The notes under the pieces: generated by a model
What the model was told of the DNA's origin: nothing
Databases searched by the model: none
Seen by the model: only the letters and a program-made list of their open reading frames with translations
Shown here: positions 13,608-27,981 of the stretch, in pieces
How the letters are laid out: every line of letters starts with the position of its first letter
Position numbering within the stretch: position 1 is the stretch's first letter
Program-made: the position numbers and the translations under genes
Assembly: GCA_017882785.1 (NCBI GenBank)
Contig: JADGOV010000004.1
Coordinates: 1,521 to 65,520, forward strand
DNA: 64,000 bases
Source of the DNA: Frankiaceae bacterium
GTDB lineage: Bacteria > Actinomycetota > Actinomycetes > JADGOV01
Reading direction: 5' to 3'

Positions 13608-13613
13608 GACAGT

Positions 13614-13661
13614 CCTCCGCACTGATAGTCCCTCGCACTGATAGTCCTCCGCACTGATAGT
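13614..13661. promoter_or_regulatory. Three tandem 16-bp direct repeats in the divergent promoter / 5'UTR region; a candidate operator for the adjacent TetR-family regulator.
   Basis: Minus-strand reading: ACTATCAGTGCGGAGG, ACTATCAGTGCGAGGG, ACTATCAGTGCGGAGG, then ctgtcATG. Each unit carries CTATCAGTG, which matches a tetO half-site (9/9), plus an SD-like GGAGG. The last unit sits 5 nt before the oxidoreductase ATG. Confidence 0.4.
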
Positions 13662-13717
13662 GTGGTGACGACGCCAATGGTGTTGCCAACCGCCGCTCGA
13701 CGTCAAGGGACTTTTCT

Positions 13718-14719
13718 GTGCCCATCCGGCCTACCCGCACACCGACCGGCTCGGAGGTCGACACAGCGCGGCCGGCCTATTCCTCGGCAGTGCGCTCCAA
13801 CCAGGCCCGCGCGACCCGGCGGACCATCGTCGCGGTTGCCGGCGAGCTCTTCGTCGAGCACGGCTACGCTGCCACCACAATCGACGCCGTCGCGGCGCGG
13901 GCCGGTGTCGGCCGCAAGACCGTCTTCTCCTCCGTCGGGGGCAAGGGCGCGCTGCTGAAGCTGGCGTGGGACTGGACGATCGCTGGCGACGACGAGCCCA
14001 TCCCCATGTCCGAGCGTCCCGCTGTGCAGGCGATGCTCGCGGAGCGGGACCCGGGCCGGCTGGTCCGGATGTGGGTCGACATGCTGCTGGACGTGGGCTC
14101 GCGGGCAGCACCGCTCGGGGCCGTCGTCCTCGCCGCGGCCGACGTCGACGCCGAGGCCCGTGCCCTTACTGAGATGATCCGCCGCGAAAGCCTGGCTGGC
14201 GCCACCGCGTTCGTCACCCACCTCGCCGGCGGCGGCGGCCTTCGAGCGGACGTCAGCATCGAACGTGGAGCCGACGCCTGTTGGGCGCTGGTCAATTCCC
14301 TGCTCCTGCACCTCCTCGTGGCCACCCGTGGCTGGTCGCTGCAGGAGTACGGCGAGTGGCTGGTGCAGGTAGCCTCCACGATGCTGCTGGAGCCGGCGGG
14401 CCCCGCGAGGTCACGACCCGCCCTGGACATCCGGACCGTGCACGAGCAGACGCGAGAGCGATACCAGGCATCAGTCGACGGTCGGGTCGCGGGGCACCTG
14501 TCATACCAGCTCACCGAACGGCTCGTCCTGTTCACCCACACCGAGGTCGACCCGGGCTTCGACGAGCGCGGCGTGGCCGACGCGCTGGTGCGCAGGGCGC
14601 TCGATGACCTGCGGGCCGACGGCACGCGTCGCGTCGTCCCCCTGTGTCACTTCGTCGCCTGGTGGATCGGCCGGCACCCCGACTACGCCTCGCTGGTGTA
14701 CGACGCCGCCGCCAACTGA
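13718..14719 (+). CDS. TetR-family transcriptional regulator fused to a C-terminal GNAT-like (PF14542-type) acetyltransferase domain.
   Basis: GTG start. The N-terminal HTH is TIVAVAGELFVEHGYAATTIDAVAARAGVGRKTVF. The C-terminal ~95 aa end with RRVVPLCHFVAWWIGRHPDY, which matches the CPFV…HPEY signature of small GNAT acetyltransferases. Confidence 0.7.
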   Translation: MPIRPTRTPTGSEVDTARPAYSSAVRSNQARATRRTIVAVAGELFVEHGYAATTIDAVAARAGVGRKTVFSSVGGKGALLKLAWDWTIAGDDEPIPMSERPAVQAMLAERDPGRLVRMWVDMLLDVGSRAAPLGAVVLAAADVDAEARALTEMIRRESLAGATAFVTHLAGGGGLRADVSIERGADACWALVNSLLLHLLVATRGWSLQEYGEWLVQVASTMLLEPAGPARSRPALDIRTVHEQTRERYQASVDGRVAGHLSYQLTERLVLFTHTEVDPGFDERGVADALVRRALDDLRADGTRRVVPLCHFVAWWIGRHPDYASLVYDAAAN

Positions 14720-14847
14720 ACGACCAAGTCAGGCACCCAACCGCCCCGAAAGGCCGCCGAGCTGCGTGGACGCCACCCAAGATCACGGTAGCCAGCTAGG
14801 CTTAGGACGGCAGCAGGCGTTGAGTGAGTGTTGAGGGGGGCATCGTG

Positions 14848-17800: not shown

Positions 17801-17991
17801 CCGACCGGATCGAGTTGTGGTGGCGGGCCGTCGACCCGGTCACCGCGCAGGCGCTGCGGGAGGGCCGCGAGCACCTGGCCGGTGAGGTGCTCGCAGTCAC
17901 CGTCACCGAGGGCGAACCGCTGGCGGCAATCGTGCCCCACGCCGCGGAGGACCTCGGGCTGACATTCTGGCTGCGCGTCGTGGGCGGTTGA
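14848..17991 (+). CDS. ileS: Isoleucyl-tRNA synthetase.
   Basis: GPPTANGRPGTHH (HIGH-class) and KMSKHLGN motifs, with zinc-finger cysteines. The ATG at 14848 is preceded by GAGGGGGG. The track ORF starts at an upstream GTG, 14824. Confidence 0.95.
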   Translation: MFRPLPARVDLPALEREVLTRWRECGVFARSLAQTADGPLWVFYEGPPTANGRPGTHHTEARAVKDIYCRFKTMQGFSVPRRAGWDCHGLPVELAVEKELGFTGKGDIEAYGVAEFNARCRESVLRHVAEFEQLTERLGYWCDMADAYRTMDPQYIESVWWSLKVIFDKGLLVQDHRVSPYCPRCGTGLSDHEVAQGYLMVTDPSVYVRFPVTSGEWAGRASLLVWTSTPWTLISNTAVAVHPDVTYVAARVTGPGAETLIVAEPLRARVLGEDAEVLATIPGRELEHVGYERPFDLLAIPDAHYVGLADYVTVEDGTGLVHQSPAFGADDLEVARRYGLPVVNPVGLDGRFAADLPLVGGQFFKSADPHIVADLRARGLLYRYADYSHSYPHCWRCDTPLIYYALPSWYIRTTAIQDALLRENAATDWHPPRVKTGRYGDWLANNVDWALSRNRYWGTPLPIWRCAAEGDPHLTVVGSLAELSTLAGADLSGLDPHRPYLDEVTFPCPECGLPASRVPEVIDAWYDSGAMPFAQWGAPHRREEEFRAAYPAQFIAEAIDQTRGWFYTLMAVGTLVFDRSSYETVLCLGIILDEHGRKMSKHLGNVLDPFSLFDQHGADAVRWLMLCGGSPWADRRVGNEPLAEVVRKVLLTYWNTVSFFTLYASVNDWTPQSAPPPAVAERPALDRWALSELHETVRVVTDALDGFDSAGAGRRLSRFIDDLSNWYVRRSRRRFWVGQPAALGTLHECLEVLTRLLAPFVPFVTDEVHQRIVGDVRPDLPDSVHLREWPVGDPALVDEPLAEQMGLVRRLVELGRGARASSKLPTRQPLGRALVVAHGWDGLAADLRAEVLEELNVTAVEVGRVEVDISVKPNFRELGRRFGPRTKAVAAAVAQLVPAQVAAALAETGSVGVWVGGADEPPERISAAELQVTETPREGWAAATAAGETVALDLTLTAELRRAGRLREVVRLVQEARKTTDLEVADRIELWWRAVDPVTAQALREGREHLAGEVLAVTVTEGEPLAAIVPHAAEDLGLTFWLRVVGG

Positions 17992-18156
17992 GCGGCCCCG
18001 CGATCAGGACAGGTTCAGGACAGCCACATCCGGCGCACGTAGACGAAGATGACGACGAGGAGGACGGCCAGGACGACCTTCCACAGCACGCGGCGTTCCG
18101 AGCGGCGATCCCGCGCCAGTTCCTCGGCCGGTGGATCCCGAGGCGGCGGTAGGTCC

Positions 18157-19704
18157 TCACCCACTGCGGAGGTCGACCTGCCCGGTCTTCTCGGTCTTGT
18201 CCCAGCGCATCTCCGCATTGCGCATTTCCGCGATGTAGGCGGTGAGGGTGACCATGCAGAGCAACGGTCCGTAGCCGCCGATGTAGATCAGTAACGGGGA
18301 CAGCCGGCGGAACCTGGTCGACTCCAGTCGCTTGGCCAGCCACGCCACTGCCATGCAGCCGGCCACCCAAGCGAAGCTGAAGATAGTCACCGCCGTACGG
18401 GTCGGGCCGCGCCAGGACGGCCCTATCCACGACATGAAGTGGGCCCCGAGCCAGTCCGCCGCGACCGGGACGCAGGTCAGCAGGATGATCGACAATGAGA
18501 TCGCTCCAGGAAACAGCAGCGCCTCCCGCCAGACCCGCCGGCCGGTCGGCGGATCCAGGGCAAGGGTCAGCGAGGTGATGAAGAGCCAGCTGACCGCATT
18601 CACGATCCACAGCGCGTGGAAGACCTGCCAGGCGCGGCCGACGTCGAGGACGTACAGCAGGAGCAGGCTGAGGCAGGAGGCGATCATCAATGCCGGCAGG
18701 AGCAGCAGGCAGAACCAGAGGATGCCGAAGCCGATGCTGCCCAGCCGATGGTCCGGGGAGGGGCGGAACCACACGCTGCGGAAGCGCCGGGTGACCTGGA
18801 TGTTGCCGCGGGCCCATCGCAACCGCTGCTTGCAGAGCCCACTCAGTGTCGCCGGCTCCTCGGCCCACACGACGGCGTGCGGCTCGAAGACCACCCGTCG
18901 CCCACCGAGCTGGGTGAGGAATGTCGTGACGGTGTCCTCGGCAAGGGTGCTGGGGTCGATCCGGCCGCCGACCGCGATCAGGTTCTCCCGGGTCAGCAGC
19001 TGGGCGCCGCCGGCGAGACAGGCCATCGCGCCGAGAACGTTCTGTGCGCGGCGCCCGCCGGCCTGCGCCGCGGCGTACTCGAAGGCGACGAACCGGGTGA
19101 GGTAGTTCCCCGGCCGGGAGCCTTCCTTGATGTAGGCGGTGACGGCGCCTACCCGCGGATCGGCGAGGTGTCGGGTCATCCGGCGCAGCGACGACGCCTC
19201 GTAGACGACGTCGGCGTCCATGATCAAGAGGGCCTGCATCCAGTCGTCGGCGAGGATCTCGCGCAGGCCGTGGTTGAGGGTGTGCGCCTTGCCTTCCCCA
19301 CCTTTCTCCCGACGTACGTGCACCACCTGCCCATGGTGCCGGCGGGCCAGCGCCTGCACCACCTGCGGCGTGTCGTCGGTGCTGGCGTCGTCGACGACGT
19401 AGACCCGCAGTTGGTCGCCGGGGTAGTCCAGCGACACCAGCCGCTCGATGCTGCAGTCCAGGACCGCGCCTTCGTTCCAGGCTGGCACGAGGATCGCGAC
19501 CCGCGGGCTGGACGGTCCGACGGCGTCGTAGTGGTCGCGCCAGCGGTGCGCGCCGACGAGTAGGAACTGGTAGGCCCCCGCCGCCAGCGGCGCCGCACCG
19601 AGCACCACCAGCACCACGAGCACCCACCAGCCGGACTGCCAAACCGCCTGCCAGGCCGTAGCCCAAGAAGTCGCGGACAATCCATACGGCATCTTGCCGG
19701 CCAT
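18157..19704 (-). CDS. Membrane GT2 processive (synthase-type) glycosyltransferase, PgaC/IcaA/NodC/cellulose-synthase-like.
   Basis: ATG at 19704. An N-terminal TM helix is followed by the GT2 catalytic domain (VYVVDDAS…DAD…QRLRWARG, the QxxRW motif) and C-terminal multi-TM helices. Confidence 0.8.
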   Translation of the reverse strand: MAGKMPYGLSATSWATAWQAVWQSGWWVLVVLVVLGAAPLAAGAYQFLLVGAHRWRDHYDAVGPSSPRVAILVPAWNEGAVLDCSIERLVSLDYPGDQLRVYVVDDASTDDTPQVVQALARRHHGQVVHVRREKGGEGKAHTLNHGLREILADDWMQALLIMDADVVYEASSLRRMTRHLADPRVGAVTAYIKEGSRPGNYLTRFVAFEYAAAQAGGRRAQNVLGAMACLAGGAQLLTRENLIAVGGRIDPSTLAEDTVTTFLTQLGGRRVVFEPHAVVWAEEPATLSGLCKQRLRWARGNIQVTRRFRSVWFRPSPDHRLGSIGFGILWFCLLLLPALMIASCLSLLLLYVLDVGRAWQVFHALWIVNAVSWLFITSLTLALDPPTGRRVWREALLFPGAISLSIILLTCVPVAADWLGAHFMSWIGPSWRGPTRTAVTIFSFAWVAGCMAVAWLAKRLESTRFRRLSPLLIYIGGYGPLLCMVTLTAYIAEMRNAEMRWDKTEKTGQVDLRSG

Positions 19705-19709
19705 GGCGG

Positions 19710-20465
19710 CTAGGCCGCTGCCGCGAGGTCGTCCACCACAGCCCGGACGTAGGACCAGCGCGCCACCTCGGCGGGGGCGTGGGCGTCGCTGCCCGCGGTG
19801 AGCAGGACGCCTTGTCGGGCGAGCATCCGCACGACCCGGCTGGAGGGGCAACGCCACTTCTCGTTGATCTCTACTGCGGACGCGGTACGCCGGCAGGTGG
19901 CGGCGAGGCGGTTGAGGTGCTCCTTGCCCACCGCCGTCTCCGTGAGCCCGCACTTGGGCAGCACGCTGAACAGGTGAGCGATGATCGCTGGGAGCGGTGA
20001 GGATTCCAGTGCCCGCACCGTCGCCTCGATCAGCGCGTCCACAACCGCCGCCGCCGGAAGCTCACCCCGGTCGATGGCGGACCGCACGTCGGCCGGATGC
20101 AGCGGGCCGTCGAGAGCAGGCACCCGGTGGTCGGCGACGAGCACGTAGTCGACGCCGGCCAGCGCGTGGGGCAGGTCAAGTCGCCCCCGGGTGTCCAGGA
20201 TCTTCGCCTCGACCCCGCACCGGACCGGCAGGGCGGCGAGACGGCGGGCTGAGCGCACGGCGCGCACGTACTCCGGCACCCAGTCGGTGTCCGACCGGAC
20301 GTGGTCGCTCACCCCCATTCCGCTGAGGTCGAGACGCTCGGCCTGAGCGATCATGTCGGCAAGCGGGGCGTGCCCGTCGCTGGTTGTCGTGTGCATGTGC
20401 AGGTCCACGGCCAACGCCGGCGGGCTCAGGCCGCGGCTCGCCGTAGGGTCGAGACCGGGGGTCAC
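19710..20465 (-). CDS. PHP-family metal-dependent phosphoesterase (CpsB/HisK-like).
   Basis: DLHMHTTTSDGHAPLADM is the N-terminal PHP motif, and downstream His/Asp metal ligands are present. 251 aa. Confidence 0.65.
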   Translation of the reverse strand: MTPGLDPTASRGLSPPALAVDLHMHTTTSDGHAPLADMIAQAERLDLSGMGVSDHVRSDTDWVPEYVRAVRSARRLAALPVRCGVEAKILDTRGRLDLPHALAGVDYVLVADHRVPALDGPLHPADVRSAIDRGELPAAAVVDALIEATVRALESSPLPAIIAHLFSVLPKCGLTETAVGKEHLNRLAATCRRTASAVEINEKWRCPSSRVVRMLARQGVLLTAGSDAHAPAEVARWSYVRAVVDDLAAAA

Positions 20466-21505
20466 GCCGGCACCGCGACCCGCTGCTCGCCGCGCCTGAG
20501 CAGGTCATCGACCTCGCTCACCGGCACGTAGCGTTCCGCCCAGTAGCGCACGACGGCGATGTCCCGATACGCCAGCGACGTCGGCAGCGGCCGGCCCAGC
20601 AGGTCGTGCAGGGCCCATGCGGGCAGGTCAACACCGGCCTGCACGGTAAGAGGCATTGTCCCGGGAAAACGCGGGTTCACTTCCAGCAGTGCAGGACGCC
20701 CGGCCGAGTCCGCACGACACTGCACGTTGGCCACCCAGCGCAGGCCGACCGCTCTGGCCACCCGCTTGCCGAAGTCCTCCAGGGCCGGATCGCTGACCGT
20801 CCGTGCGGCGACGGCGATCCCGGAGTCCACCTTGTCCCGCCGCCGCGGCACCACGGCCACGACGCGGCCCGGGCCGGCGAGCACGTCGAGGGACCACTCC
20901 GCCCCCGGCAGCAACTCCTGGACGATCATCGAGCCGTCCCGCGGGAGGTCGGCCAGGCCGGCTGGGGCGGTGACCTGCGCTACCCCGCGCCCGCCCGCCC
21001 CCCGCCGAGGCTTGACCACGACGGCCCCGGTGAGCCCCGCGGCCGCGAGCGCCCCGTCATCGAGCCCATGATCGAGGACTCGGGTGTGCGGCACGCGCAC
21101 TGCGCCGGCACAGACCCGGACGAGCGTCGCCTTGTCCAGGGTTCGGGCCAGCGTGGCGGGTGACTCGACGAGGACCCGGACCCCGTGCTGGGCGAAATCC
21201 GCGACCCGGCGACTTATCGGTGCCAGCTCGACGTCGACGGTGGGCACCAGCACGTCGACCTTGTGCCGCACGCACGCCGCGAGCAGGGCCGTGGTGAACT
21301 CGGGAGCGTCACCACGCGGCAGCAGCTCTCGGCGAGTCGGCGGAACCAGATACAGCCCCGCCGCGTACGGATCGAGGTCGGCCGCGATGAGGTCCACCCG
21401 GTCTTCGAGGTCGCGCAGGAAGGCCACCGCTGCGGCACCGCCGGCACCGGTGACCAGCACCCGCAGCCGGCGGCCCTGCGGGCCGCTGAGATCAGGTGAG
21501 GGCAC
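20462..21505 (-). CDS. ATP-grasp domain protein (carboxylate-amine ligase family). The start may be the internal GTG at 21460.
   Basis: Shows a pre-ATP-grasp region and the ATP-grasp fold (…VVKPRRGAGGRGV…IVQELLPG…LEVNPR…), resembling CPSase/RimK-like ligases. Confidence 0.65.
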   Translation of the reverse strand: MPSPDLSGPQGRRLRVLVTGAGGAAAVAFLRDLEDRVDLIAADLDPYAAGLYLVPPTRRELLPRGDAPEFTTALLAACVRHKVDVLVPTVDVELAPISRRVADFAQHGVRVLVESPATLARTLDKATLVRVCAGAVRVPHTRVLDHGLDDGALAAAGLTGAVVVKPRRGAGGRGVAQVTAPAGLADLPRDGSMIVQELLPGAEWSLDVLAGPGRVVAVVPRRRDKVDSGIAVAARTVSDPALEDFGKRVARAVGLRWVANVQCRADSAGRPALLEVNPRFPGTMPLTVQAGVDLPAWALHDLLGRPLPTSLAYRDIAVVRYWAERYVPVSEVDDLLRRGEQRVAVPA

Positions 21506-22982
21506 GAGTGCCGTCCTTCATGTCGCCGTCCTTCATCTGAGGAGCCACGTCGAAGGCCGCGGAGGCCGGGGTGCTCTCCCGCAGCACCTCCAGTGGCTCG
21601 GCGTAGGTCGTGCCGGTGGCCGTGCCGTGCACGCGGGCCTGGGCGATGAGCAGATCCTCGGCCAGGTAGTCGCGTTGGCCGATCTGGGACGCGAAGGCCG
21701 CCAGCAGAGCGATCTTTCGGGACATCACCGAGCCCACGTCGACGAAGCGGGTTGGGCGGAAGTCCACGGTCGCCGAAGGCGAACGGTAGCCGTACACCCG
21801 GCCGACCCGTCGGGTGGCGATCATCGCCGCCGAGTGCACCGCCCGGTGGTCCTGGTGGTGATCGTGGCTGGAGTGCACGTAGACGATGGTCGGGCGTACC
21901 GCAGCCACGACCTCCTCCACCACGTCGATCGTGGGCCGGCCCTCCGGGATCGCCGTGTCCGGCAGCTCGCCGAGGTAGAGGCGAGCGTCCAACAGCGCGG
22001 CGGCGCGCACCGACTCCTCCTGGCGCCGCGCCGGGTCGCCGCCGGTGGCCCCCGCGCTCATCGTCAGCACCGTGACCTCGTCGGCCTGCGCTGCGTGCAC
22101 GAGCAGCGCGCCGCCCGCGCCGATCTCCACATCATCCGGATGCGCACCGATGGCGAGCACCCGTTCCCGTCTGTCCTGGAAACGGGAAATCGCCCGCTGC
22201 ACAGCCTCGACCAACGCGGCGGGACGAATGGGCTTGGCCACGAAGTCGGCCGCGCCGGCGCGCATCGCCTCCACCGCGGTGGACATTCGGGCGTCGCCGG
22301 TCACGAGCACGGTCGGCAGCCCGGGCCGGGCTGCCTGCACGGCGGCGGCGAGTTCGAGGCCGTTGCGGCCGCTCATGTGGATGTCGGACACCACCGCATC
22401 ACAGACGCTCCCATCCCCGAGGGCGAGCAGCGCCTCTTCCGCGCTGGCCAGTGCGGTCACGGAATACCCACCCCGCTGGGTGAGCACCAACTCGAGCAGA
22501 CGCCGCAGATCAGGGTCGTCGTCGGCCACGATCACGCGGCCCCGCCGTTCCCGAGCCAGCCGGACGAGGTCGGCCGCGGCCACCACCGGCTCGCCGGAAC
22601 TCTCCCTGTGACGGCGCAGGAGGGCCTCGATCCGGGCCAGCAACTCATTCGCCCGGTAGGGCTTGGTCAGGTAGTCGTCGGCGCCGGACCGCAGGCCGCG
22701 GACGACGTCGCTGGGCCCGCCCTCCGCGGTGAGCATGATCACCGGCACGTCGCTGTGTCGGCGCACCCGCTGCAGCACCTGCCAGCCGTCCAGCTCCGGC
22801 AACCCGACATCGAGCACCACCAGATCCGGCTGCTCCTCCAGGACCGCCTGCAGCCCGGAGCGCCCGTCCTGCCGCGAGAACGTCTGGTAGCCATGCTCAG
22901 TGAGAAGCAACTCCAGCGCGCGGCGGATGTCGGCGTCGTCCTCGATGAGTACCACCCGCGCAGGTGACTGTCCGCCCGCCAT
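21492..22982 (-). CDS. Dual-receiver response regulator fused to a PIG-L/LmbE-family N-acetylglucosaminyl deacetylase domain (REC-REC-LmbE).
   Basis: REC1 is VVLIEDD…VVLDVGLPELDG…LTKPY. REC2 is VIVADDD…VVSDIHMSG…VAKPI. The C-terminal domain carries AIGAHPDDVEIGAGG and HSSHDHHQDH zinc-deacetylase motifs. The ATG at 22982 overlaps the histidine-kinase stop (ATGA). Confidence 0.75.
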   Translation of the reverse strand: MAGGQSPARVVLIEDDADIRRALELLLTEHGYQTFSRQDGRSGLQAVLEEQPDLVVLDVGLPELDGWQVLQRVRRHSDVPVIMLTAEGGPSDVVRGLRSGADDYLTKPYRANELLARIEALLRRHRESSGEPVVAAADLVRLARERRGRVIVADDDPDLRRLLELVLTQRGGYSVTALASAEEALLALGDGSVCDAVVSDIHMSGRNGLELAAAVQAARPGLPTVLVTGDARMSTAVEAMRAGAADFVAKPIRPAALVEAVQRAISRFQDRRERVLAIGAHPDDVEIGAGGALLVHAAQADEVTVLTMSAGATGGDPARRQEESVRAAALLDARLYLGELPDTAIPEGRPTIDVVEEVVAAVRPTIVYVHSSHDHHQDHRAVHSAAMIATRRVGRVYGYRSPSATVDFRPTRFVDVGSVMSRKIALLAAFASQIGQRDYLAEDLLIAQARVHGTATGTTYAEPLEVLRESTPASAAFDVAPQMKDGDMKDGTRALT

Positions 22983-24247
22983 CACCGGGCCTGCCACAAC
23001 GGAATCCGGATGCCGATGGTCGTGCCGACTCCGAGCTCGCTGGACATGGTGATCTGGCCACCGTGCCGGGACACGATCACCCGGGAGATCAGCAGTCCCA
23101 TGCCGGTACCGGGGATGCCCTCGGTCCGGGTGTTCGAGGCCCGGAAGACGTCGTGGAAGATCCGGTCCTGCTCCGCAACGGGGATGCCGATGCCGGTGTC
23201 CGCCACGTCGAGGGCCCATTGGGCACCCTCGCGCCTGGACCGCAGGCTCACCCGTCCCCCGGCAGGGGTGTACTTCACCGCGTTACCGACCACGTTGTCG
23301 AGAACCTGGGCCATTCGCTCCCGATCGACCTCGCTGCGAAGGCCGTCCTCGACCTCGTCCCCGACAAGGTCAAGGCCCTTCCGCTCGCTATAGGCGGCGC
23401 GGTGCCGCAACGCGTCGCGGGCCAGCTGACCTGTATCCACACTGGCCAGCCGCAGCGGCTCGTCCTCCCATTCCAGGGAGGCGATGAGCCGCAGATCCTC
23501 GACCAACCGGATGAGCCGCCGGGCGTTGCGCTCGATGACCTCGACGTATTCGGCCACAGCCGGGTCGGAGGTGCCGTCCAGGGACTCCGCCAGCAGTTCG
23601 GCGAAGCTCACCACCGAGGTGAGCGGCGTGCGCAGTTCGTGGGAGATCATCCGGGCCAGACCGGGCTCGCCGGGCTCGCCACGGCCGGCCGGCTCGTCCA
23701 AGCCGTAGATCACCAAACCCTGCACGGCCGGCTCGTCCCGCAGGTCGCGCACCACGGTGCGCAGGCTGCGGTAGCCGCCGTCGCGGTGGCGCACCCGCAG
23801 CGTGAACGGGGCGCTCGCGGCCGGCGGATCGCTGAGCTGACGTACCAAGCCGGCGCGGTCGTCCGGATGAACGAGCTCAAGCACTTCCACCGGAGGCTGA
23901 TCCTGCGGATAACTCAGCGTCTGCATCCCTTGCGAGGACAGCCATTGCCAGTTTCCGTCGGCGTCCAGCAGTCCGACCAACGCGGGGATCTGGTCGAGAA
24001 CGACCGCGCGCAGCCGATCGCTCGCGTCACCCGCCCCGATCTGCTCGGCCAGCGGGTGGCCACCGTCGGCCGCCAGAGCCACGGACGACCTCGGTGGTCC
24101 GGGGACGCCCGAGGGTGCCGAATCCGCCCCCGCCGGCGAGGACTGGCGCGGCACCGTCCGAGACGACGGAACATCCGAGGTCGGCTGCAGAGCCTGCAGA
24201 GCGCTCGGGTCACGGCTCGGGTCGGGGGTCACGTTTGGCACGCGCAC
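22982..24247 (-). CDS. Cytoplasmic PAS-domain sensor histidine kinase.
   Basis: A PAS region is followed by the HisKA H-box MISHELRTPLTSV and HATPase_c (N, G1 DTGIGI, G2 GTGMGL). No TM segments are present. It is translationally coupled to the downstream response regulator. Confidence 0.8.
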   Translation of the reverse strand: MRVPNVTPDPSRDPSALQALQPTSDVPSSRTVPRQSSPAGADSAPSGVPGPPRSSVALAADGGHPLAEQIGAGDASDRLRAVVLDQIPALVGLLDADGNWQWLSSQGMQTLSYPQDQPPVEVLELVHPDDRAGLVRQLSDPPAASAPFTLRVRHRDGGYRSLRTVVRDLRDEPAVQGLVIYGLDEPAGRGEPGEPGLARMISHELRTPLTSVVSFAELLAESLDGTSDPAVAEYVEVIERNARRLIRLVEDLRLIASLEWEDEPLRLASVDTGQLARDALRHRAAYSERKGLDLVGDEVEDGLRSEVDRERMAQVLDNVVGNAVKYTPAGGRVSLRSRREGAQWALDVADTGIGIPVAEQDRIFHDVFRASNTRTEGIPGTGMGLLISRVIVSRHGGQITMSSELGVGTTIGIRIPLWQAR

Positions 24248-24273
24248 GGCCTGAGCCGGCGTGCCTGCCTTGG

Positions 24274-24354
24274 CCCTGCCATGACAGTGTCTTCGGCCCG
24301 CGTCGGGCCGGCCTGAAGCGAAGCGGGCTCGCCAGTGAGCCGCTGCCTACGAGG
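24274..24354. repeat. Copy A of a conserved ~80-nt element (core CAGTGTCTTCGGCCCGCGYCGGRCCGGCCTGAAGC).
   Basis: It shares a 36-nt core (2 mismatches) and a similar 3' tail with copy B at 27617..27703. It contains a GGCCCG-cgt-CGGGCC hairpin. It lies 27 nt upstream of the histidine-kinase start (minus) and about 217 nt upstream of the GT4 gene (plus). Confidence 0.5.
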
Positions 24355-24570
24355 AGAAAGTCGCGAGACCTGCTGCCCGTGAACGGCCATTGCGGCCCGG
24401 CGGCAAGCTGAGAAGCTGCCGATGAACGGCTGCTATCGTGGGGTCCTGGAATATGATTAGCAGATTCGCACAATGAGGTTCGGATCTTTTCTGGACGTCT
24501 CCCCCCAGCCCGGGCAGCTATCCATTACAGCCCTGCTGGCGGGACATTGGTTCCGGGAGACGTGGTGGGA

Positions 24571-26121
24571 ATGCGCATTCTGATATTCCATGGCTACCTC
24601 CTGCGGGGCACAGGAAGTAATATCTACAATACGGAGCTGGCCCGGTGGCTGGTCGATCTCGGCCACGAGGTACATCTGTTGTGCCAGGAAAGGCACGCGG
24701 CGGAATTCGATTTCGTGGATGCCGTCGGCCGCTGGCGTCACGGGCGGCTGGACGTCGAGGTCACGCGCCGTCCGGTCCGCTGTACTGCTTACCTCCCGGA
24801 CATCGGCGGCCTCCTGCCGGTCTATGTGGCCGATCACTACGAGGGATTCGACGCGCGCCCCTTTCCGGAGCTGACAGACGGTCAGATCGAACATTACATC
24901 GCGGCAAACACCGCCGCCGTTCGCGACGTCGTCGCGGCGGTCGAGCCGGACGGGGCCCTCGCGAACCACCTGGTGATGGGCCCGGTGATCCTGGCCCGCG
25001 CGCTGGCTGGCCGCGTCCCCTATGCGATCAAGATCCACGGTTCGGCCCTCGAGTACACCGTCCGGCCCAACGTCGGACGATTCGGCTCCTACGCCCGCGA
25101 GGGCCTGGCGGGAGCAACCGGGGTCCTCGTCGGCTCACGCCATACCGCCGAGAGCCTGTGGGAGGTCGTCGGTCTGCCGGACCTTCCGGCTCGCACCCGG
25201 CTCCTCCCGCCAGGTGTCGACGTCCGCAGGTTCCACCCCCGCCCGCCCGGGGAGGCCAAGGATGGGTTGCGTGCGCTGGCAGCACGCGTGGAGGCGGACC
25301 CGCCCACCTGGGGCGGGGAAGCCGACGCGGCGCAAGCCATCAGGGCAGCCGACCCCACCCGGGATCGGATTGTCAGCTATGTCGGGAAACTCATCGCCTC
25401 GAAGGGCGTGGACCTGCTCATTGCGGCCTGGCCACTGGTCATCGACCGCGCTCCTGACGCCCGCCTCATGATCGCCGGCTTTGGCGCCTATCGTCACGCG
25501 CTGCTCCAACTCGCCCGCGCCCTGGGCGAGGGCGATCTGGCGGCCGCGCGGGTCATCGCCAGCCGCGGACGGGAACTGGAAGGAGGGCCTCCGGGGGAGC
25601 TTCGCTACCTGGCCGCGTTCCTCGATGGCCTCACCGGCGCGGAGCAAGAACGCTACCTGAACGCCTCCCCGGCCGCTATGCGGCGTATCCATTTCACCGG
25701 GCGGATCGAACACGATGATGTCTCCGAACTCATGTGCGCGTCCCAGGCGGTGGTCGTCCCGAGTACATTCCCGGAGGCTTTCGGCATGGTCCTCGCAGAA
25801 GCCGCGTGTTGCGGGGCGATGCCGCTGTCGGCAGCCCACTCGGGGCTCGCGGAGGTGACTGAGGTGCTAGCGCCCGCATTGCGTAAGGACCTGCGCCCTC
25901 AGCTGTCCTTCCAGCTGGGCCCCGGCGCCGTGCGGGAGATCGCCGATAAGCTGGCTTGTTGGCTGTCGTTCACTGCGAACACACCGAATGCCTGGAGACA
26001 GGCCCGCGAGGACCTGGCCGATCTTGCCTGCGCCCAGTTTGGCTGGCAGGAAGTGGCCAAGGGTGTCGCGGCGGCCGCCCGGGGCCAGCTCGGCGGGCTG
26101 CCGCCCGTGCCCGTGGACTGA
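24571..26121 (+). CDS. GT4-family (GT-B) glycosyltransferase.
   Basis: ATG at 24571. MRILIFHGYLLRGTGSNIYNTELARWLVDLGHEVHLL opens the N-domain; the C-domain contains EAFGMVLAEAACCGAMPL (E-x7-E region). 516 aa. Confidence 0.8.
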   Translation: MRILIFHGYLLRGTGSNIYNTELARWLVDLGHEVHLLCQERHAAEFDFVDAVGRWRHGRLDVEVTRRPVRCTAYLPDIGGLLPVYVADHYEGFDARPFPELTDGQIEHYIAANTAAVRDVVAAVEPDGALANHLVMGPVILARALAGRVPYAIKIHGSALEYTVRPNVGRFGSYAREGLAGATGVLVGSRHTAESLWEVVGLPDLPARTRLLPPGVDVRRFHPRPPGEAKDGLRALAARVEADPPTWGGEADAAQAIRAADPTRDRIVSYVGKLIASKGVDLLIAAWPLVIDRAPDARLMIAGFGAYRHALLQLARALGEGDLAAARVIASRGRELEGGPPGELRYLAAFLDGLTGAEQERYLNASPAAMRRIHFTGRIEHDDVSELMCASQAVVVPSTFPEAFGMVLAEAACCGAMPLSAAHSGLAEVTEVLAPALRKDLRPQLSFQLGPGAVREIADKLACWLSFTANTPNAWRQAREDLADLACAQFGWQEVAKGVAAAARGQLGGLPPVPVD

Positions 26122-27426
26122 TGAGGGTTCGCGCACGAATGACTCTCGTTTGGCTGGTACAAGCGATCGGCCGTGCGGACCGGAAATCAGGAAGAAGGGG
26201 TCAGTCTTCCCAGCGGCGAGGATGTACCAGGCGGTCGCCCCGGTGTGCAGCGACGCGTAGTAGGAGCCGCCGCCGCAGTCGCTGAGCCCGTTCCTCGAGG
26301 CCGATATGATGCCGAGGCCGTCGCTGTTCGGCCCGTGCGCCTGGGCATGGTAGATGTCCGACAAGTACTCTGCTGCCCTTGCGCCGTCCCCGGGACCGCC
26401 GCGCAGTTCAAGCGCGTCAGCGAGGTGCGCGGTTCCCTCGAACCAGACGCCCGTACGGTCTCCACCGCAGAAGCTCACGCCGCTGAAACCGCCGGCGGAG
26501 ACGGCGAGGTTCCGCACATCCCAACCGACCGATGCGGCGTAGCCGGGATCTCGCAAGGCGAGATATGACCAGCTGTTGACATCTTCGGGAGTCACACTGT
26601 CGTTGGGGGTCTTCCCGTCGCTGGTTGTTCCGATGTAGAACCGGCCTTGCCGTGCGTCCCACACCCCCGCGACGAAGCGTCTCGCCCACGCCGCCCTGAC
26701 CGACCAGGCCGGGTCGCGCGTCTTCATGGCAAGCAGGCTGAAGAAGGCGTAGAGGTCGATGTTGTGCTCGGCGGACTTCCATTCGATCTTCTGGCCGTTC
26801 GCCGACTCGCCGCCCGTGTACCCGCCCGGCCCCCGCGTGTCGTGGCAGTGGGCCTGGACCCAGTTCCCGATCGCTTCCGCTCCCGTGAGGTAAACCCTCC
26901 GGCCGGTGGCCGCGTAGAGCTGGACAAGGGCCTGGCCGGCCCACGCCATGGCTCCTACGTGGCTGGCCGCGTCGGTGACCGTCACATCGCTCGGGCTGCG
27001 CAGTGGGGCTGGCGAGTACGCGGCGCGAACGCGGCCGTCATGCTGCGGATCGTGCGCCTGCACATACAGCAGCCCGTTGCCGATGACCTCTGCCCTGGAC
27101 CGTCCGCCCGGGGTGCCTGCCGCCAGGTACGCATCGACGAGGAGCGCGTCGTCGTAGGTCTCCGAGGCCGTGAAGTGCTGCTGTCCGAGAACGCCCCCGG
27201 TGAAGCTCTGCACGAGGCGTGGGGTCGAGCCTGCGGCGTACTTGTCCATCATCTGGCTGAGGAACGAATAAGCATCCGCGACGCTGCTCTGCAGCTGCCT
27301 GGCCGGAACCTGCGCGGGCGGGCCCGCGGCGCCTCGATCCCCGGCTGGGGCGCAGCCCACGATGCCGGCCGTGGTTGCGGCCAGCACGGCTGCCACGGCA
27401 GCACCCGCCAGGTCGACCCGACTCAT
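25867..27426 (-). CDS. Secreted lipoprotein, possibly an (alpha/alpha)6-type glycoside-hydrolase-like protein.
   Basis: ATG at 27426 with GGGAGAG upstream. Signal peptide plus lipobox MSRVDLAGAAVAAVLAATTAGIVGC. The body is rich in W/Y/D/G. The last ~85 codons overlap the convergent GT4 3' end and look non-protein-like, so a frameshift or mis-called end is possible. Confidence 0.5.
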   Translation of the reverse strand: MSRVDLAGAAVAAVLAATTAGIVGCAPAGDRGAAGPPAQVPARQLQSSVADAYSFLSQMMDKYAAGSTPRLVQSFTGGVLGQQHFTASETYDDALLVDAYLAAGTPGGRSRAEVIGNGLLYVQAHDPQHDGRVRAAYSPAPLRSPSDVTVTDAASHVGAMAWAGQALVQLYAATGRRVYLTGAEAIGNWVQAHCHDTRGPGGYTGGESANGQKIEWKSAEHNIDLYAFFSLLAMKTRDPAWSVRAAWARRFVAGVWDARQGRFYIGTTSDGKTPNDSVTPEDVNSWSYLALRDPGYAASVGWDVRNLAVSAGGFSGVSFCGGDRTGVWFEGTAHLADALELRGGPGDGARAAEYLSDIYHAQAHGPNSDGLGIISASRNGLSDCGGGSYYASLHTGATAWYILAAGKTDPFFLISGPHGRSLVPAKRESFVREPSSVHGHGRQPAELAPGGRRDTLGHFLPAKLGAGKIGQVLAGLSPGIRCVRSERQPTSQLIGDLPHGAGAQLEGQLRAQVLTQCGR

Positions 27427-27616
27427 CGCCACTCTCCCGCCGTGGTCGTGGCGGTGAAGGTGGCCGGCGTCGATCTCACGCTTCTGGGGAGGCGCGGTGA
27501 CGCCTGCCTCCGCCGCCAGCCGCCGAGGCCCGTGGGACGGTTGCTGTCCCCTTGGCGTCCCTGGTGAGAGCCGGGGCGGTCGTCCTCGGCCGTGACGGTC
27601 AGGCTCAGCGCAACGC

Positions 27617-27703
27617 CCCCTGCCTCGGCCCCGCCAGTGTCTTCGGCCCGCGCCGGACCGGCCTGAAGCAGGGGGCCTGCCAGCGAGCTGCTACGAACCG
27701 AGG
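27617..27703. repeat. Copy B of the conserved ~80-nt element.
   Basis: CCCCTGCC…CAGTGTCTTCGGCCCGCGCCGGACCGGCCTGAAGC…CTGCCAGCGAGCTGCTACGAACCGAGG. It lies immediately downstream of the yggT stop and about 190 nt upstream of the lipoprotein gene start, both on the minus strand. Confidence 0.5.
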
Positions 27704-27981
27704 TCGGCGACCACTGTCCGGAGGATGTTCACCAGGATGAACAGCACGAGGAAGGCCAGATCCAGCGCGACCCCGCCGATCCGCAGGGGTGGAATGATCC
27801 GTCGCAGCAGTCGCAGCGGTGGATCTGTGATCGAGTAGGTGATCTCCAAGACGATCACCATCACCCCGGTCGGCCGATAGCTGCGGGAGAGTTGGAAGAC
27901 CCACTCCATGACGAGCCGGAAGATCAGCAGGAGCAGGAAGATCAGCAGAGCGTCGCTCAACAGGCGAGCCACCAGTGCCAC
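27691..27981 (-). CDS. YggT-family small membrane protein (cell-division cluster).
   Basis: GTG at 27981 with GGGAGG upstream. VALVARLLSDALLIFLLLLIFRLVMEWV… is typical of YggT/YlmG. It lies downstream of sepF. Confidence 0.6.
   Translation of the reverse strand: MALVARLLSDALLIFLLLLIFRLVMEWVFQLSRSYRPTGVMVIVLEITYSITDPPLRLLRRIIPPLRIGGVALDLAFLVLFILVNILRTVVADLGS

What the first reader, a model, noticed from the sequence alone, without database searches (positions are those of the whole stretch)
18015..27703. Two-component-controlled glycosylation / deacetylation gene block inserted between ileS and the sepF-yggT end of the dcw cluster
Nine genes in about 9.5 kb form a coherent functional set that the conserved flanks (ileS; yggT-sepF-yggS-pgeF-ftsZ) do not explain. 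On the minus strand, apparently as one unit with 1-14 nt overlaps or gaps, lie a PAS histidine kinase, a REC-REC-LmbE deacetylase, an ATP-grasp ligase, a PHP phosphoesterase, a membrane GT2 processive synthase (QxxRW) and a tiny possible TM peptide. Divergent from these are a GT4 glycosyltransferase and a secreted lipoprotein. One reading is a regulated exopolysaccharide system: the synthase, deacetylase and secreted hydrolase-like lipoprotein echo poly-GlcNAc (Pga/Ica) logic, but with an LmbE-type rather than CE4 deacetylase. The other reading is a mycothiol/bacillithiol-like small-glycoside pathway: GT4 glycosyltransferase, then phosphatase, then LmbE deacetylase, then amide ligase, with an ATP-grasp enzyme replacing MshC. 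Neither architecture matches a described system as far as I recall.
Basis: partly seen in the sequence, partly recalled or inferred. Interest (0 to 1): 0.8.

Follow-up and report, generated by a model that had tools for sequence, protein, structure and literature searches.

The report
Kinase-gated sugar-editing glycan synthase cassette
A 9.5-kb accessory gene block sitting where the cell-pole gene divIVA normally lies carries a widespread but unstudied cassette that probably makes a modified surface sugar polymer, with a sugar deacetylase switched directly by a two-component signalling kinase.

Summary
All nine genes are present with the predicted domains. The block is accessory: 28 related actinobacterial loci have yggT-divIVA-ileS with no such block, and here the block replaces divIVA.

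The main new result is that five minus-strand genes form a conserved cassette. It runs REC-fused PIG-L/LmbE deacetylase, then ATP-grasp ligase, PHP phosphoesterase, PgaC-like membrane GT2, and a single-pass micropeptide whose start overlaps the GT2 stop. It is exactly colinear in 33 of 57 informative genome loci across Actinomycetota and rearranged in Proteobacteria. In Proteobacteria a His_Phos_1 phosphatase replaces PHP and a secreted TPR protein with a barrel-like tail is added.

GT4 and the lipoprotein are optional but recurrent partners. The lipoprotein is weakly glycosidase-like.

No curated family threshold of the Pga/Ica, mycothiol, bacillithiol, Nod or Hpn systems is met, and eight full-text literature searches (seven aimed at the cassette) found no description.

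Best model (inferred): a phosphorylation-gated "deacetylate, re-acylate, dephosphorylate" edit of GlcNAc units, coupled to a synthase that exports a surface glycan. A mycothiol-like small glycoside or a glycolipid remains possible.

I rate it a new variant of a known kind, interest about 0.6.

The parts
18015..18164 (-). Micropeptide of 49 aa. It has a charged N-terminus with the motif ..E(I/L)..D.R.E(R/K).L, one TM helix and a short basic tail. Its GTG start overlaps the GT2 stop by 8 nt.
   Evidence: Frame translation, junction, hydropathy. An equivalent peptide follows GT2 in 33 other loci, including one alphaproteobacterium.
18157..19704 (-). Membrane GT2 synthase of 515 aa. It has 1 N-terminal and about 5 C-terminal TM helices and the motifs DDAS105, DAD163, ED256 and QRLRW293. 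PgaC/IcaA and NodC are its nearest curated families.
   Evidence: Pfam GT2 families. TIGR03937 PgaC_IcaA scores 127 bits against a cut-off of 422, and NodC 81 against 550. PDB hits are a minimal cellulose-synthase-like GT2, hyaluronan synthase and BcsA. Topology and motifs.
19710..20465 (-). PHP-family metal-dependent phosphoesterase, 251 aa, soluble.
   Evidence: PF02811. H23, H25, D30, H55, E86, H113, H164, D227 and H229 are invariant in 45 cassette homologues. In Gram-negative versions a His_Phos_1 phosphatase sits next to the ATP-grasp gene instead.
20462..21505 (-). ATP-grasp amide ligase of 347 aa, with a PylC-like N-domain and an ATPgrasp_Ter/CPS-like core.
   Evidence: PF15632 104 bits, PF21360. 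PRK12767-type models score below their cut-offs. Nearest solved structure is 2pn1, which is uncharacterised.
21492..22982 (-). REC-REC-PIG-L protein of 496 aa. An OmpR-type receiver without a DNA-binding domain is fused to a receiver-PIG-L/LmbE deacetylase.
   Evidence: Pfam. The acceptor Asp of the second receiver and the motifs AHPDD and HQDH are invariant in 18 sequences. Relatives have one receiver (about 350 aa) preceded by a separate receiver or a full OmpR-type regulator. Nearest solved PIG-L is BshB1.
22982..24082 (-). Soluble PAS-HisKA-HATPase histidine kinase, 366 aa. The longest ORF reaches 24247. Its stop overlaps the regulator's start (TGATG).
   Evidence: Pfam, gene call, no TM segment, junction.
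24268..24319 (.). Copy 1 of a 52-nt direct repeat (similarity extends to about 85 nt). It lies 186 nt upstream of the kinase start and in the divergent kinase/GT4 intergenic region.
   Evidence: only two copies in 64 kb, none in shuffled sequence.
24571..26121 (+). Soluble GT4 glycosyltransferase of 516 aa with an insertion in the C-terminal Rossmann half. It is an optional partner of the cassette.
   Evidence: Pfam. MshA and BshA models score far below cut-off. It lies beside PIG-L genes in 5 of 7 contexts examined.
25867..27432 (-). Lipoprotein. The conserved domain of about 419 aa spans 26175-27432 and includes a lipobox Cys27. It is followed by a read-through tail of about 100 aa (25867-26174) that overlaps GT4. 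The domain is weakly similar to six-hairpin glycosidases.
   Evidence: Homologues are 416-425 aa long and 68-84% identical. Weak GH76 and GH127 hits. In other proteins the domain is fused to ricin-B, GDSL, beta-helix or fn3 domains. It lies beside the cassette in the window, L087 and L092.
27618..27669 (.). Copy 2 of the direct repeat. It lies 186 nt upstream of the lipoprotein start and just downstream of yggT.

Best explanation
The block is an accessory, horizontally mobile glycan-biosynthesis module that took the divIVA slot between yggT and ileS.

**Core.** A conserved cassette of five genes: REC-fused PIG-L deacetylase, ATP-grasp ligase, phosphatase, PgaC-like membrane GT2 and a micropeptide. 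A soluble PAS histidine kinase controls it.

**Proposed mechanism**
1. The kinase phosphorylates the receiver(s) of the deacetylase, so signalling acts on an enzyme rather than on transcription. The domain architecture is shown; the effect is inferred.
2. A GlcNAc unit supplied from UDP-GlcNAc is N-deacetylated in the cytoplasm. It may be a donor, a primer or the non-reducing end of a growing chain. This is inferred from intact catalytic motifs and from the substrates of every known PIG-L enzyme.
3. The ATP-grasp enzyme re-acylates the freed amine with a carboxylate, possibly a phosphorylated acid or amino acid (inferred).
4. The phosphatase removes a phosphate. That a phosphatase step is needed is supported by non-homologous replacement of PHP by His_Phos_1. 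The substrate is unknown.
5. The GT2-micropeptide complex polymerises and exports the modified glycan to the cell surface (inferred).

The lipoprotein would trim or release the product outside the cell. GT4 would supply an optional primer or side branch.
For: - **Cassette conservation.** Synteny and tight coupling in 33 of 57 informative loci across several actinobacterial orders and Proteobacteria.
- **Catalytic residues.** Invariant in PIG-L and PHP. GT2 carries the D, DxD, ED and QxxRW motifs and about six TM helices.
- **Micropeptide.** Conserved and translationally coupled to GT2, recalling IcaD/PgaD.
- **Gram-negative versions.** They add a signal-peptide TPR protein with an aromatic-ended, barrel-like C-terminus next to GT2. 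They also replace PHP with His_Phos_1 next to the ATP-grasp gene.
- **Neighbouring genes.** GH81, GH15, NAGPA and the glycosidase-like lipoprotein lie nearby.
- **Sensors of the kind that control biofilm.** H-NOX with a hybrid kinase in Marinicella, a Che-like cluster in L175 and multi-PAS kinases.
- **Published precedent.** In C. jejuni capsule synthesis an ATP-grasp ligase, a dedicated phosphatase and a GT2 edit the growing chain end in the cytoplasm (PMC11800379).
- **Shared upstream repeat.** Present upstream of both the kinase operon and the lipoprotein gene.
Against: - In every characterised synthase-dependent EPS system, deacetylation is extracytoplasmic. Here the deacetylase, ligase and phosphatase are soluble cytoplasmic proteins, and it is unclear how they would reach a chain that is being threaded through a synthase.
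- The nearest solved PIG-L enzymes act on small glycosides.
- Some relatives keep PIG-L, ATP-grasp and GT4 but have no GT2 or exporter.
- QxxRW also occurs in non-processive GT2/GT21 enzymes (general knowledge).
- The TPR similarity to PgaA, BcsC and PrsT is generic and below cut-off.
- No substrate was identified for any enzyme.
- The lipoprotein model was too poor for a fold search.
Confidence: 0.5

Rival explanations
1. A pathway for a small cytoplasmic GlcN-glycoside, similar in logic to mycothiol, bacillithiol or a compatible solute.
1. A glycosyltransferase (GT4 and/or GT2) makes GlcNAc-X-phosphate.
2. PHP removes the phosphate.
3. PIG-L deacetylates the product.
4. The ATP-grasp enzyme ligates an amino acid, taking the place of MshC or BshC.
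For: - The step order matches MshA, MshA2, MshB and MshC (established pathway knowledge).
- The nearest solved PIG-L is BshB1.
- GT4 gives weak hits to MshA, BshA and sucrose-phosphate synthase.
- L175 has REC-PIG-L, ATP-grasp and GT4 with no GT2. L174 has PIG-L and GT4. L033 has REC-PIG-L and GT4.
- The His_Phos_1 substitutes resemble small-molecule phosphatases such as CobC and PspA.
- All four enzymes are soluble.
Against: - GT4 is absent from nearly all cassettes (2 of 80 genome loci).
- The conserved transferase is a polytopic PgaC-like GT2 with a dedicated membrane micropeptide.
- Gram-negative versions include a secreted TPR protein with a barrel-like tail.
- Scores against MshA and BshA are about ten times below cut-off.
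- No MshC, BshC or MshD equivalent is present.
Confidence: 0.2
2. Envelope glycolipid remodelling. GT2 places GlcNAc on a membrane lipid, as HpnI does on bacteriohopanetetrol. PIG-L converts it to GlcN-lipid, as HpnK does. The ATP-grasp enzyme then adds an amino acid, giving a charged head group. The kinase tunes this change.
For: - GT2 also hits the Glyco_transf_21 and HpnI models.
- A GT2 plus PIG-L pair is the known route to glucosaminyl-hopanoids (established knowledge).
- Cytoplasmic enzymes can reach a lipid on the inner leaflet.
- No separate exporter is seen in the actinobacterial loci.
Against: - HpnI scores 48 bits against a cut-off of 310, and PgaC is the better match.
- The outer-membrane-type TPR partner in Gram-negative versions and the adjacent glycosidase genes fit a polymer better.
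- No lipid-synthesis genes are linked to the cassette.
Confidence: 0.15
3. The three soluble enzymes regulate rather than build. The phosphatase resets the phosphorelay, like SixA or CpsB. The ATP-grasp and PIG-L enzymes reversibly modify the synthase, its micropeptide or a signalling metabolite, and so take the role that c-di-GMP plays in other systems.
For: - Both the PHP and the histidine-phosphatase families include protein phosphatases (general knowledge; weak SixA hits).
- ATP-grasp enzymes can modify peptides.
- No c-di-GMP module is present in these loci.
- Extra receivers and kinases cluster around the cassette.
Against: - His_Phos_1 members score better against small-molecule phosphatases than against SixA.
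- The PIG-L catalytic site is that of a sugar deacetylase.
- The conserved part of the micropeptide lacks the Thr/Ser/Lys plus Asp/Glu pattern of ATP-grasp-modified peptides.
Confidence: 0.07
4. The genes are neighbours by chance and share no function.
For: - GT4 and the lipoprotein also occur away from the cassette.
- Some REC-PIG-L genes stand alone.
Against: - The order is colinear in 33 loci from different orders.
- Genes overlap at their junctions.
- The micropeptide is conserved.
- The same set recurs in Proteobacteria.
Confidence: 0.03

Closest known systems
Poly-beta-1,6-GlcNAc systems (PgaABCD in E. coli, IcaADBC in staphylococci)
   Same: - A polytopic GT2 whose best curated match is PgaC/IcaA.
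- A small membrane partner encoded next to the synthase, as PgaD and IcaD are.
- A deacetylase in the operon.
- A TPR protein with a barrel-like tail in the Gram-negative versions, as with PgaA.
- A glycosidase-like secreted protein nearby.
   Different: - GT2 scores 127 bits against an equivalog cut-off of 422.
- The deacetylase is a cytoplasmic PIG-L fused to a receiver domain, not a secreted CE4.
- An ATP-grasp ligase and a phosphatase are integral parts.
- The micropeptide has one TM helix and no detectable homology to PgaD or IcaD.
- Control is by a histidine kinase rather than c-di-GMP.
Mycothiol (MshA, MshA2, MshB, MshC, MshD) and bacillithiol (BshA, BshB, BshC) pathways
   Same: - The same chemical logic: a GT4 GlcNAc transferase, a phosphatase, a PIG-L deacetylase and ATP-dependent amide ligation onto GlcN.
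- BshB1 is the nearest solved relative of the PIG-L domain.
   Different: - The ligase is an ATP-grasp enzyme, not a MshC- or BshC-type enzyme.
- GT4 is optional.
- A membrane GT2 with a micropeptide is the conserved transferase.
- The deacetylase carries receiver domains.
- There is no acetyltransferase step.
- Curated MshA and BshA cut-offs are missed by about ten-fold.
Nod factor core (NodC, NodB, NodA)
   Same: A GT2 GlcNAc oligomer synthase, followed by cytoplasmic N-deacetylation of a GlcNAc unit, then re-acylation of the freed amine.
   Different: - NodB is a CE4 enzyme and NodA is an acyl-ACP transferase. Here the equivalents are a PIG-L and an ATP-grasp enzyme.
- NodC scores 81 bits against a cut-off of 550.
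- There is no NodIJ-type exporter.
- There is an extra phosphatase step.
C. jejuni HS:2 capsule amidation (Cj1438 GT2 plus ATP-grasp, Cj1435 phosphatase; PMC11800379)
   Same: An ATP-grasp amidoligase, a dedicated phosphatase and a GT2 act in the cytoplasm on a sugar of a growing surface polysaccharide. The ligated partner carries a phosphate that is removed afterwards.
   Different: - There the sugar provides the carboxylate (GlcA) and the phosphatase is of the HAD type.
- The ATP-grasp domain is TupA-like and fused to the GT2.
- There is no deacetylase and no receiver domain.
- Export is by an ABC transporter.
Hopanoid head-group pathway (HpnI GT2, HpnK PIG-L)
   Same: A membrane GT2 paired with a PIG-L deacetylase, yielding a glucosaminyl product at the inner face of the membrane.
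   Different: - HpnI scores 48 bits against a cut-off of 310.
- No hopanoid genes are linked.
- The cassette has a ligase, a phosphatase, a micropeptide and a kinase in addition.

Membership tests
PNAG synthesis (Pga/Ica) | Synthase is a PgaC/IcaA equivalog (TIGR03937 at or above its cut-off) | tested here: not met
   127.5 bits against a cut-off of 422.3, although it is the best-scoring curated family.
PNAG synthesis (Pga/Ica) | Extracytoplasmic CE4 deacetylase (PgaB/IcaB) | tested here: not met
   No CE4 domain in any of the nine proteins. The deacetylase is a soluble REC-PIG-L protein with no signal peptide or TM segment.
PNAG synthesis (Pga/Ica) | Small membrane co-subunit of the synthase (PgaD/IcaD) | tested here: inconclusive
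   A conserved single-TM micropeptide is translationally coupled to GT2. It has no Pfam or NCBIfam hit, so this is analogy only.
PNAG synthesis (Pga/Ica) | Product is beta-1,6-GlcNAc | not testable with these tools
   Needs chemistry, dispersin B sensitivity or an anti-PNAG antibody.
Mycothiol pathway | MshA equivalog (TIGR03449) | tested here: not met
   GT4 scores 36.1 bits against a cut-off of 462.5.
Mycothiol pathway | MshC-type cysteine ligase and MshD acetyltransferase | tested here: not met
   Neither domain type occurs in the block. The ligase is an ATP-grasp enzyme.
Bacillithiol pathway | BshA equivalog (TIGR03999) and BshB/BshC | tested here: not met
   BshA model scores 31.9 bits against a cut-off of 273.7. 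PIG-L against BshB1 scores only 47 bits. No BshC is present.
Nod factor core (NodABC) | NodC equivalog plus NodB (CE4) plus NodA | tested here: not met
   NodC scores 80.7 bits against a cut-off of 550. No CE4 or NodA domain is present.
Hopanoid HpnI/HpnK | HpnI equivalog (TIGR03472) | tested here: not met
   48.2 bits against a cut-off of 310.
Two-component system | HisKA plus HATPase_c kinase adjacent to receiver(s) with an acceptor Asp | tested here: met
   HisKA scores 59 bits and HATPase_c 89 bits. Two receiver domains together score 181 bits. The acceptor Asp, Thr and Lys of the second receiver are invariant. The first receiver has the DD...D...T...K pattern by inspection of the sequence.
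PIG-L/LmbE deacetylases (PF02585) | Pfam gathering score met and zinc/catalytic motifs AHPDD and HxxH present | tested here: met
   78.1 bits against a cut-off of 28.2. H281, D283, D284, H376 and H379 are invariant in 18 sequences.
PHP phosphoesterases (PF02811) | Gathering score met and His/Asp/Glu metal ligands present | tested here: met
   39.6 bits against a cut-off of 26.4. Nine ligand positions are invariant in 45 homologues.
ATP-grasp, ATPgrasp_Ter type (PF15632) | Gathering score met | tested here: met
   104.3 bits against a cut-off of 29.1. No link to a Ter operon is seen in any locus.
Known anti-phage defence systems (PADLOC) | Any specific model hit | tested here: not met
   Only generic hits to REC and HATPase regions.

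The most novel reading that the evidence does not exclude
The cassette defines an unrecognised, widespread class of synthase-dependent surface-glycan system found in Actinomycetota and some Proteobacteria. Its building blocks are edited in the cytoplasm by N-deacetylation, ATP-grasp re-acylation and dephosphorylation. Output is set post-translationally by phosphorylation of a receiver fused to the deacetylase. This would be a new response-regulator output domain and an alternative to c-di-GMP control. A conserved micropeptide would be an obligatory subunit of the synthase.
Probability: 0.3. Interest if true: 0.8.

Novelty: new variant of a known kind. Interest (0 to 1): 0.6.

Why it matters
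If the model is right, it adds three things.
1. A new enzymatic output for two-component signalling: a sugar deacetylase switched by phosphorylation.
2. A new type of matrix or surface polymer, with N-acyl-substituted glucosamine, in many soil and plant-associated actinobacteria and in some Legionella.
3. A conserved micropeptide partner for a PgaC-like synthase.

The cassette occurs in cultured, tractable genera (Microbacterium, Leifsonia, Cellulomonas, Leucobacter, Blastococcus), so the hypothesis can be tested directly.

The replacement of divIVA at its otherwise invariant position is a separate curiosity for the cell biology of this uncultured lineage.

Tried and rejected
- **Lipoprotein structure.** AlphaFold2 with 37 homologues gave mean pLDDT 41. 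That is too poor for a fold search, so none was run. I relied on weak profile hits and domain fusions instead.
- **RNA families.** An Rfam scan of the block found nothing.
- **Repeat as RNA.** Folding the two repeat copies as RNA gave z-scores of -0.7 and -1.4, so an RNA-structure reading was dropped.
- **Promoters and terminators.** The scan gave no more sites than shuffled sequence.
- **Composition.** The profile shows no clear compositional island.
- **Mobile-element signs.** No flanking long repeats or other mobile-element signatures were found at the block edges.
- **Defence systems.** The PADLOC scan was negative.
- **Solved structures.** PDB sequence searches for the ATP-grasp, PHP and GT4 proteins returned only generic or uncharacterised relatives.
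- **Literature.** Seven full-text searches for the cassette found no description. An eighth search retrieved the C. jejuni precedent. The Iyer 2009 amidoligase survey is not in the held library.
- **SixA-like reading of the phosphatase.** I considered it and down-weighted it, because the His_Phos_1 substitutes score better against CobC and PspA.
- **Peptide as an ATP-grasp-modified RiPP precursor.** I considered it and set it aside, because the conserved part is a TM helix preceded by an ER/EK motif.

Full report
**1. What is in the sequence**

The window is about 71% G+C, so I separated real genes from spurious ORFs by third-position GC. I checked the result against independent gene calls on near-identical metagenome contigs. 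Window coordinates:

| Gene | Coordinates | Strand | Size |
|---|---|---|---|
| ileS | 14824-17991 | + | 1055 aa |
| micropeptide | 18015-18164 | - | 49 aa |
| GT2 | 18157-19704 | - | 515 aa |
| PHP | 19710-20465 | - | 251 aa |
| ATP-grasp | 20462-21505 | - | 347 aa |
| REC-REC-PIG-L | 21492-22982 | - | 496 aa |
| PAS histidine kinase | 22982-24082 | - | 366 aa |
| GT4 | 24571-26121 | + | 516 aa |
| lipoprotein | 25867-27432 | - | 521 aa |
| yggT | 27691-27981 | - | 96 aa |

- sepF, yggS, pgeF, ftsZ and ftsQ follow yggT.
- The minus-strand genes are joined by TGATG, a 14-nt overlap, GTGA, a 5-nt gap and an 8-nt overlap.
- Only GT2, the peptide and the lipoprotein have hydrophobic segments. GT2 has one N-terminal and about five C-terminal helices, the peptide has one helix, and the lipoprotein has a signal peptide with a lipobox.
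- The kinase, the deacetylase, the ligase, the phosphoesterase and GT4 are soluble.

- The lipoprotein gene is on the minus strand, convergent with GT4.
- Its ORF runs about 100 codons past the point where all homologues end, so it overlaps GT4 by 255 nt.

**2. The block is accessory and has replaced divIVA**

- I fetched 80 metagenome loci that encode SepF relatives.
- In all 28 that extend far enough past yggT, a DivIVA probe hit follows yggT. ileS, lspA, rluD and dnaE follow wherever the locus extends far enough, though four loci that reach lspA gave no ileS hit. The full order is ftsQ-ftsZ-pgeF-yggS-sepF-yggT-divIVA-(ileS)-lspA-rluD-dnaE.
- None of them contains any gene of the block.
- In the window the block fills exactly the yggT-ileS interval.
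- The DivIVA probe that found every one of those relatives finds nothing in the whole 64-kb window. The probe sequence was written from memory, but its hits in the relatives validate it.
- The same arrangement is present in six independent assemblies of this organism.

**3. A conserved cassette**

*REC-PIG-L fusions are common.*
- A protein search found more than a thousand fusions of about 350 aa with a single receiver.
- The phospho-acceptor Asp and the PIG-L motifs AHPDD and HQDH are invariant in the 18 sequences aligned.

*The gene order is conserved.*
- A scan of one genome per species returned 80 loci.
- Of the 57 REC-PIG-L loci with at least 4.5 kb downstream, 33 have exactly REC-PIG-L, then ATP-grasp, PHP and GT2. 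Ten more have part of this order.
- Hosts include Microbacterium, Leucobacter, Leifsonia, Cellulomonas, Blastococcus, Serinicoccus, Occultella, Streptosporangiaceae, Acidimicrobiia, Thermoleophilia and Solirubrobacterales.
- Nothing else is conserved around the cassette except kinases and extra receivers.
- None of these loci lies beside ileS or sepF.

*The micropeptide is real.*
- Immediately after GT2, and overlapping its stop, 33 loci encode a small protein. It has a charged N-terminus, a conserved ..E(I/L)..D.R.E(R/K).L motif and one TM helix.

*The PHP enzyme looks active.* Its nine metal-ligand positions are invariant in 45 cassette homologues.

*The window's double receiver is a fusion.*
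- In L087, L092 and L035 a complete OmpR-type regulator precedes REC-PIG-L.
- In L047, L019 and L007 a stand-alone receiver precedes it.
- In the window that receiver has no DNA-binding domain and is joined in frame to REC-PIG-L. This form was seen only at 100% identity.

**4. Variants that bear on function**

*Gram-negative versions*:

| Locus | Organism | Order |
|---|---|---|
| L065 | Legionella drozanskii | GH81, GT2, 1034-aa TPR protein, ATP-grasp, His_Phos_1, REC-PIG-L |
| L055 | L. rowbothamii | GT2, 854-aa TPR protein, ATP-grasp, REC-PIG-L |
| L060 | Rhodospirillales | GT2 (+peptide), TPR protein, REC-PIG-L, ATP-grasp, His_Phos_1 |
| L050 | Marinicella | H-NOX and hybrid kinase, divergent from REC-PIG-L, ATP-grasp, GT2, TPR protein |

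- The L055 TPR protein has a signal peptide and a C-terminal region of about 220 aa that is rich in aromatic residues and ends ...YWG.
- Its TPR part resembles PrsT, PgaA and BcsC only at generic, sub-threshold level.

Two points follow:
- The PHP phosphoesterase is replaced by an unrelated phosphatase in the same place, next to the ATP-grasp gene. A phosphatase step is therefore integral to the module. These substitutes score better against small-molecule phosphatases (CobC, PspA) than against SixA.
- Diderm hosts add a secreted TPR protein with a barrel-like tail beside the synthase. This is the pattern of synthase-dependent polysaccharide export.

*A distant variant.* Catenulispora, Amycolatopsis and Modestobacter carry PIG-L without a receiver, then GT2, two small genes, ATP-grasp and a UDP-GlcNAc 2-epimerase. 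This points to UDP-GlcNAc-derived substrates.

**5. GT4 and the lipoprotein**

*Conservation.* Both are strongly conserved among soil actinomycete metagenome bins: GT4 is 63-88% identical and the lipoprotein 68-84%.

*GT4 contexts.* It lies beside a PIG-L gene in five of seven contexts examined:
- the window
- L087, which has the full cassette
- L033: REC-PIG-L, then GT4
- L174: PIG-L, a small ORF, GT4, GH15
- L175: a Che-like cluster, then REC-PIG-L, ATP-grasp and GT4, with no PHP or GT2

It stands alone in L176 and L177.

*Lipoprotein contexts.* It lies beside the cassette in the window, L087 and L092, but not in five other loci.

*Lipoprotein family.*
- It has no Pfam model.
- Members give weak but repeated hits to GH76 and GH127. 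A profile search of the PDB finds only GH76 mannanases, at E of about 0.007.
- The family is large, with 1849 representative clusters.
- In other proteins the domain is fused to ricin-B lectin, GDSL esterase, beta-helix and fn3 domains. This is the usual setting of secreted carbohydrate-active enzymes.
- The AlphaFold model was unusable (pLDDT 41).

*Shared repeat.*
- A 52-nt direct repeat, 83% identical with similarity over about 85 nt, occurs exactly twice in the window.
- Each copy lies 186 nt upstream of a start codon: that of the kinase and that of the lipoprotein.
- The two copies bracket the GT4-lipoprotein segment.
- It may be a shared control element or a scar of how the segment was inserted. 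It does not fold significantly as RNA.

**6. Mechanism**

*Shown*
- The domain architecture.
- Intact catalytic residues in the PIG-L, PHP and GT2 proteins.
- Cytoplasmic location of the three soluble enzymes.
- Membrane location of GT2 and the peptide.
- Conserved order and coupling of the genes.
- Non-homologous replacement of the phosphatase.

*Inferred*
- Every characterised PIG-L enzyme removes the N-acetyl group of a GlcNAc glycoside.
- ATP-grasp enzymes with PylC- or CPS-like domains ligate a carboxylate to an amine.
- The simplest chemistry is therefore to turn GlcNAc into GlcN and then into N-acyl-GlcN. A phosphate would be removed from the acceptor or from the ligated group.
- C. jejuni provides a precedent. 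An ATP-grasp ligase adds serinol-phosphate or ethanolamine-phosphate to the end of a growing capsule chain, a dedicated phosphatase removes the phosphate, and only then does a GT2 domain extend the chain (PMC11800379).
- I therefore favour an edit-and-extend or edited-donor scheme that feeds a PgaC-like synthase-micropeptide complex. The deacetylation step would be gated by receiver phosphorylation.

*Sensors.* The sensors attached to the cassette fit a surface or biofilm output: PAS kinases, H-NOX and a Che-like system.

*Main difficulty.* It is unclear how cytoplasmic enzymes would reach a chain inside a processive synthase. The GT4-only variants also lack an exporter. For these reasons the small-glycoside and glycolipid rivals keep appreciable weight.

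**7. Comparison with known systems**

- No curated equivalog threshold is met: PgaC 127/422, NodC 81/550, HpnI 48/310, MshA 36/462, BshA 32/274.
- There is no CE4 deacetylase and no MshC-, BshC- or NodA-type enzyme.
- No defence-system model matches.
- The cassette works like a hybrid of the Pga/Ica architecture and the "deacetylate then re-acylate GlcN" logic of the mycothiol, bacillithiol and Nod pathways. It is a member of none of them.
- Seven full-text searches for the cassette found no description. Many subscription-journal papers are not in the searched library, so prior work cannot be excluded.

**8. Verdict**

The block is coherent, accessory and undescribed, but the product class is unresolved.
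- Novelty: a new variant of a known kind.
- Interest: about 0.6.

Noticed in passing
window 27432-27691 and the whole window: divIVA (wag31) follows yggT in all 28 related loci examined. Here it is missing from that slot, and no hit to it was found anywhere in the 64-kb window. The block occupies its place. Whether this lineage has divIVA elsewhere is unknown.
   Followed up: partly
window 24268-24319 and 27618-27669: A 52-nt direct repeat, 83% identical with similarity over about 85 nt, occurs only twice in the window. Each copy is 186 nt upstream of a start codon (kinase and lipoprotein). Together the copies bracket the GT4-lipoprotein segment. There is no Rfam hit and no significant RNA fold. 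It could be a shared operator or promoter, or an insertion scar.
   Followed up: partly
window 25867-26174: The lipoprotein ORF lacks the stop codon found at the family's usual end. It reads on for about 100 codons, antisense through the last 255 nt of GT4. Gene callers on sister contigs disagree about which of the two genes to call.
   Followed up: partly
window 21492-22982 compared with L087:648-2636, L092:9418-11249 and L047:9968-11561: The first receiver of the window protein corresponds to a separate OmpR-type regulator or stand-alone receiver in relatives. Here its DNA-binding domain is gone and it is fused in frame to REC-PIG-L. This organism may therefore have lost the transcriptional arm of the system.
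   Followed up: partly
L078:9998-14841; also L074, L075, L080, L082, L084-L086: A distant cluster in Catenulispora, Amycolatopsis, Modestobacter and Geodermatophilus has PIG-L without a receiver, GT2, a weakly exosortase-like membrane protein, an unknown gene, ATP-grasp and a UDP-GlcNAc 2-epimerase.
   Followed up: partly
L175:2529-11560: A chemotaxis-like gene set (CheW, a kinase fragment, a receiver, CheB, CheR) lies directly upstream of REC-PIG-L, ATP-grasp and GT4. This suggests a chemosensory pathway that controls this enzyme set. L174 also has a CheR-like gene next to PIG-L and GT4.
   Followed up: no
L050:9-2224: In a Marinicella genome, an H-NOX haem sensor gene and a hybrid histidine kinase gene are divergent from the REC-PIG-L, ATP-grasp, GT2 and TPR operon. 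This hints at nitric-oxide control.
   Followed up: no
L087:4991-7980 and L023:13056-15999: The cassette GT2 is duplicated in tandem in two relatives. L087 also has a NAGPA (phosphodiester glycosidase) gene next to the lipoprotein gene.
   Followed up: no
window 12231-14719: Between ileS and lspA lie a TetR-GNAT fusion gene (13718-14719, +) and a divergent FAD-dependent, halogenase-like gene (12231-13706, -). The tblastn search found no matches to either in the related loci, so they appear to be a second small accessory insertion.
   Followed up: no
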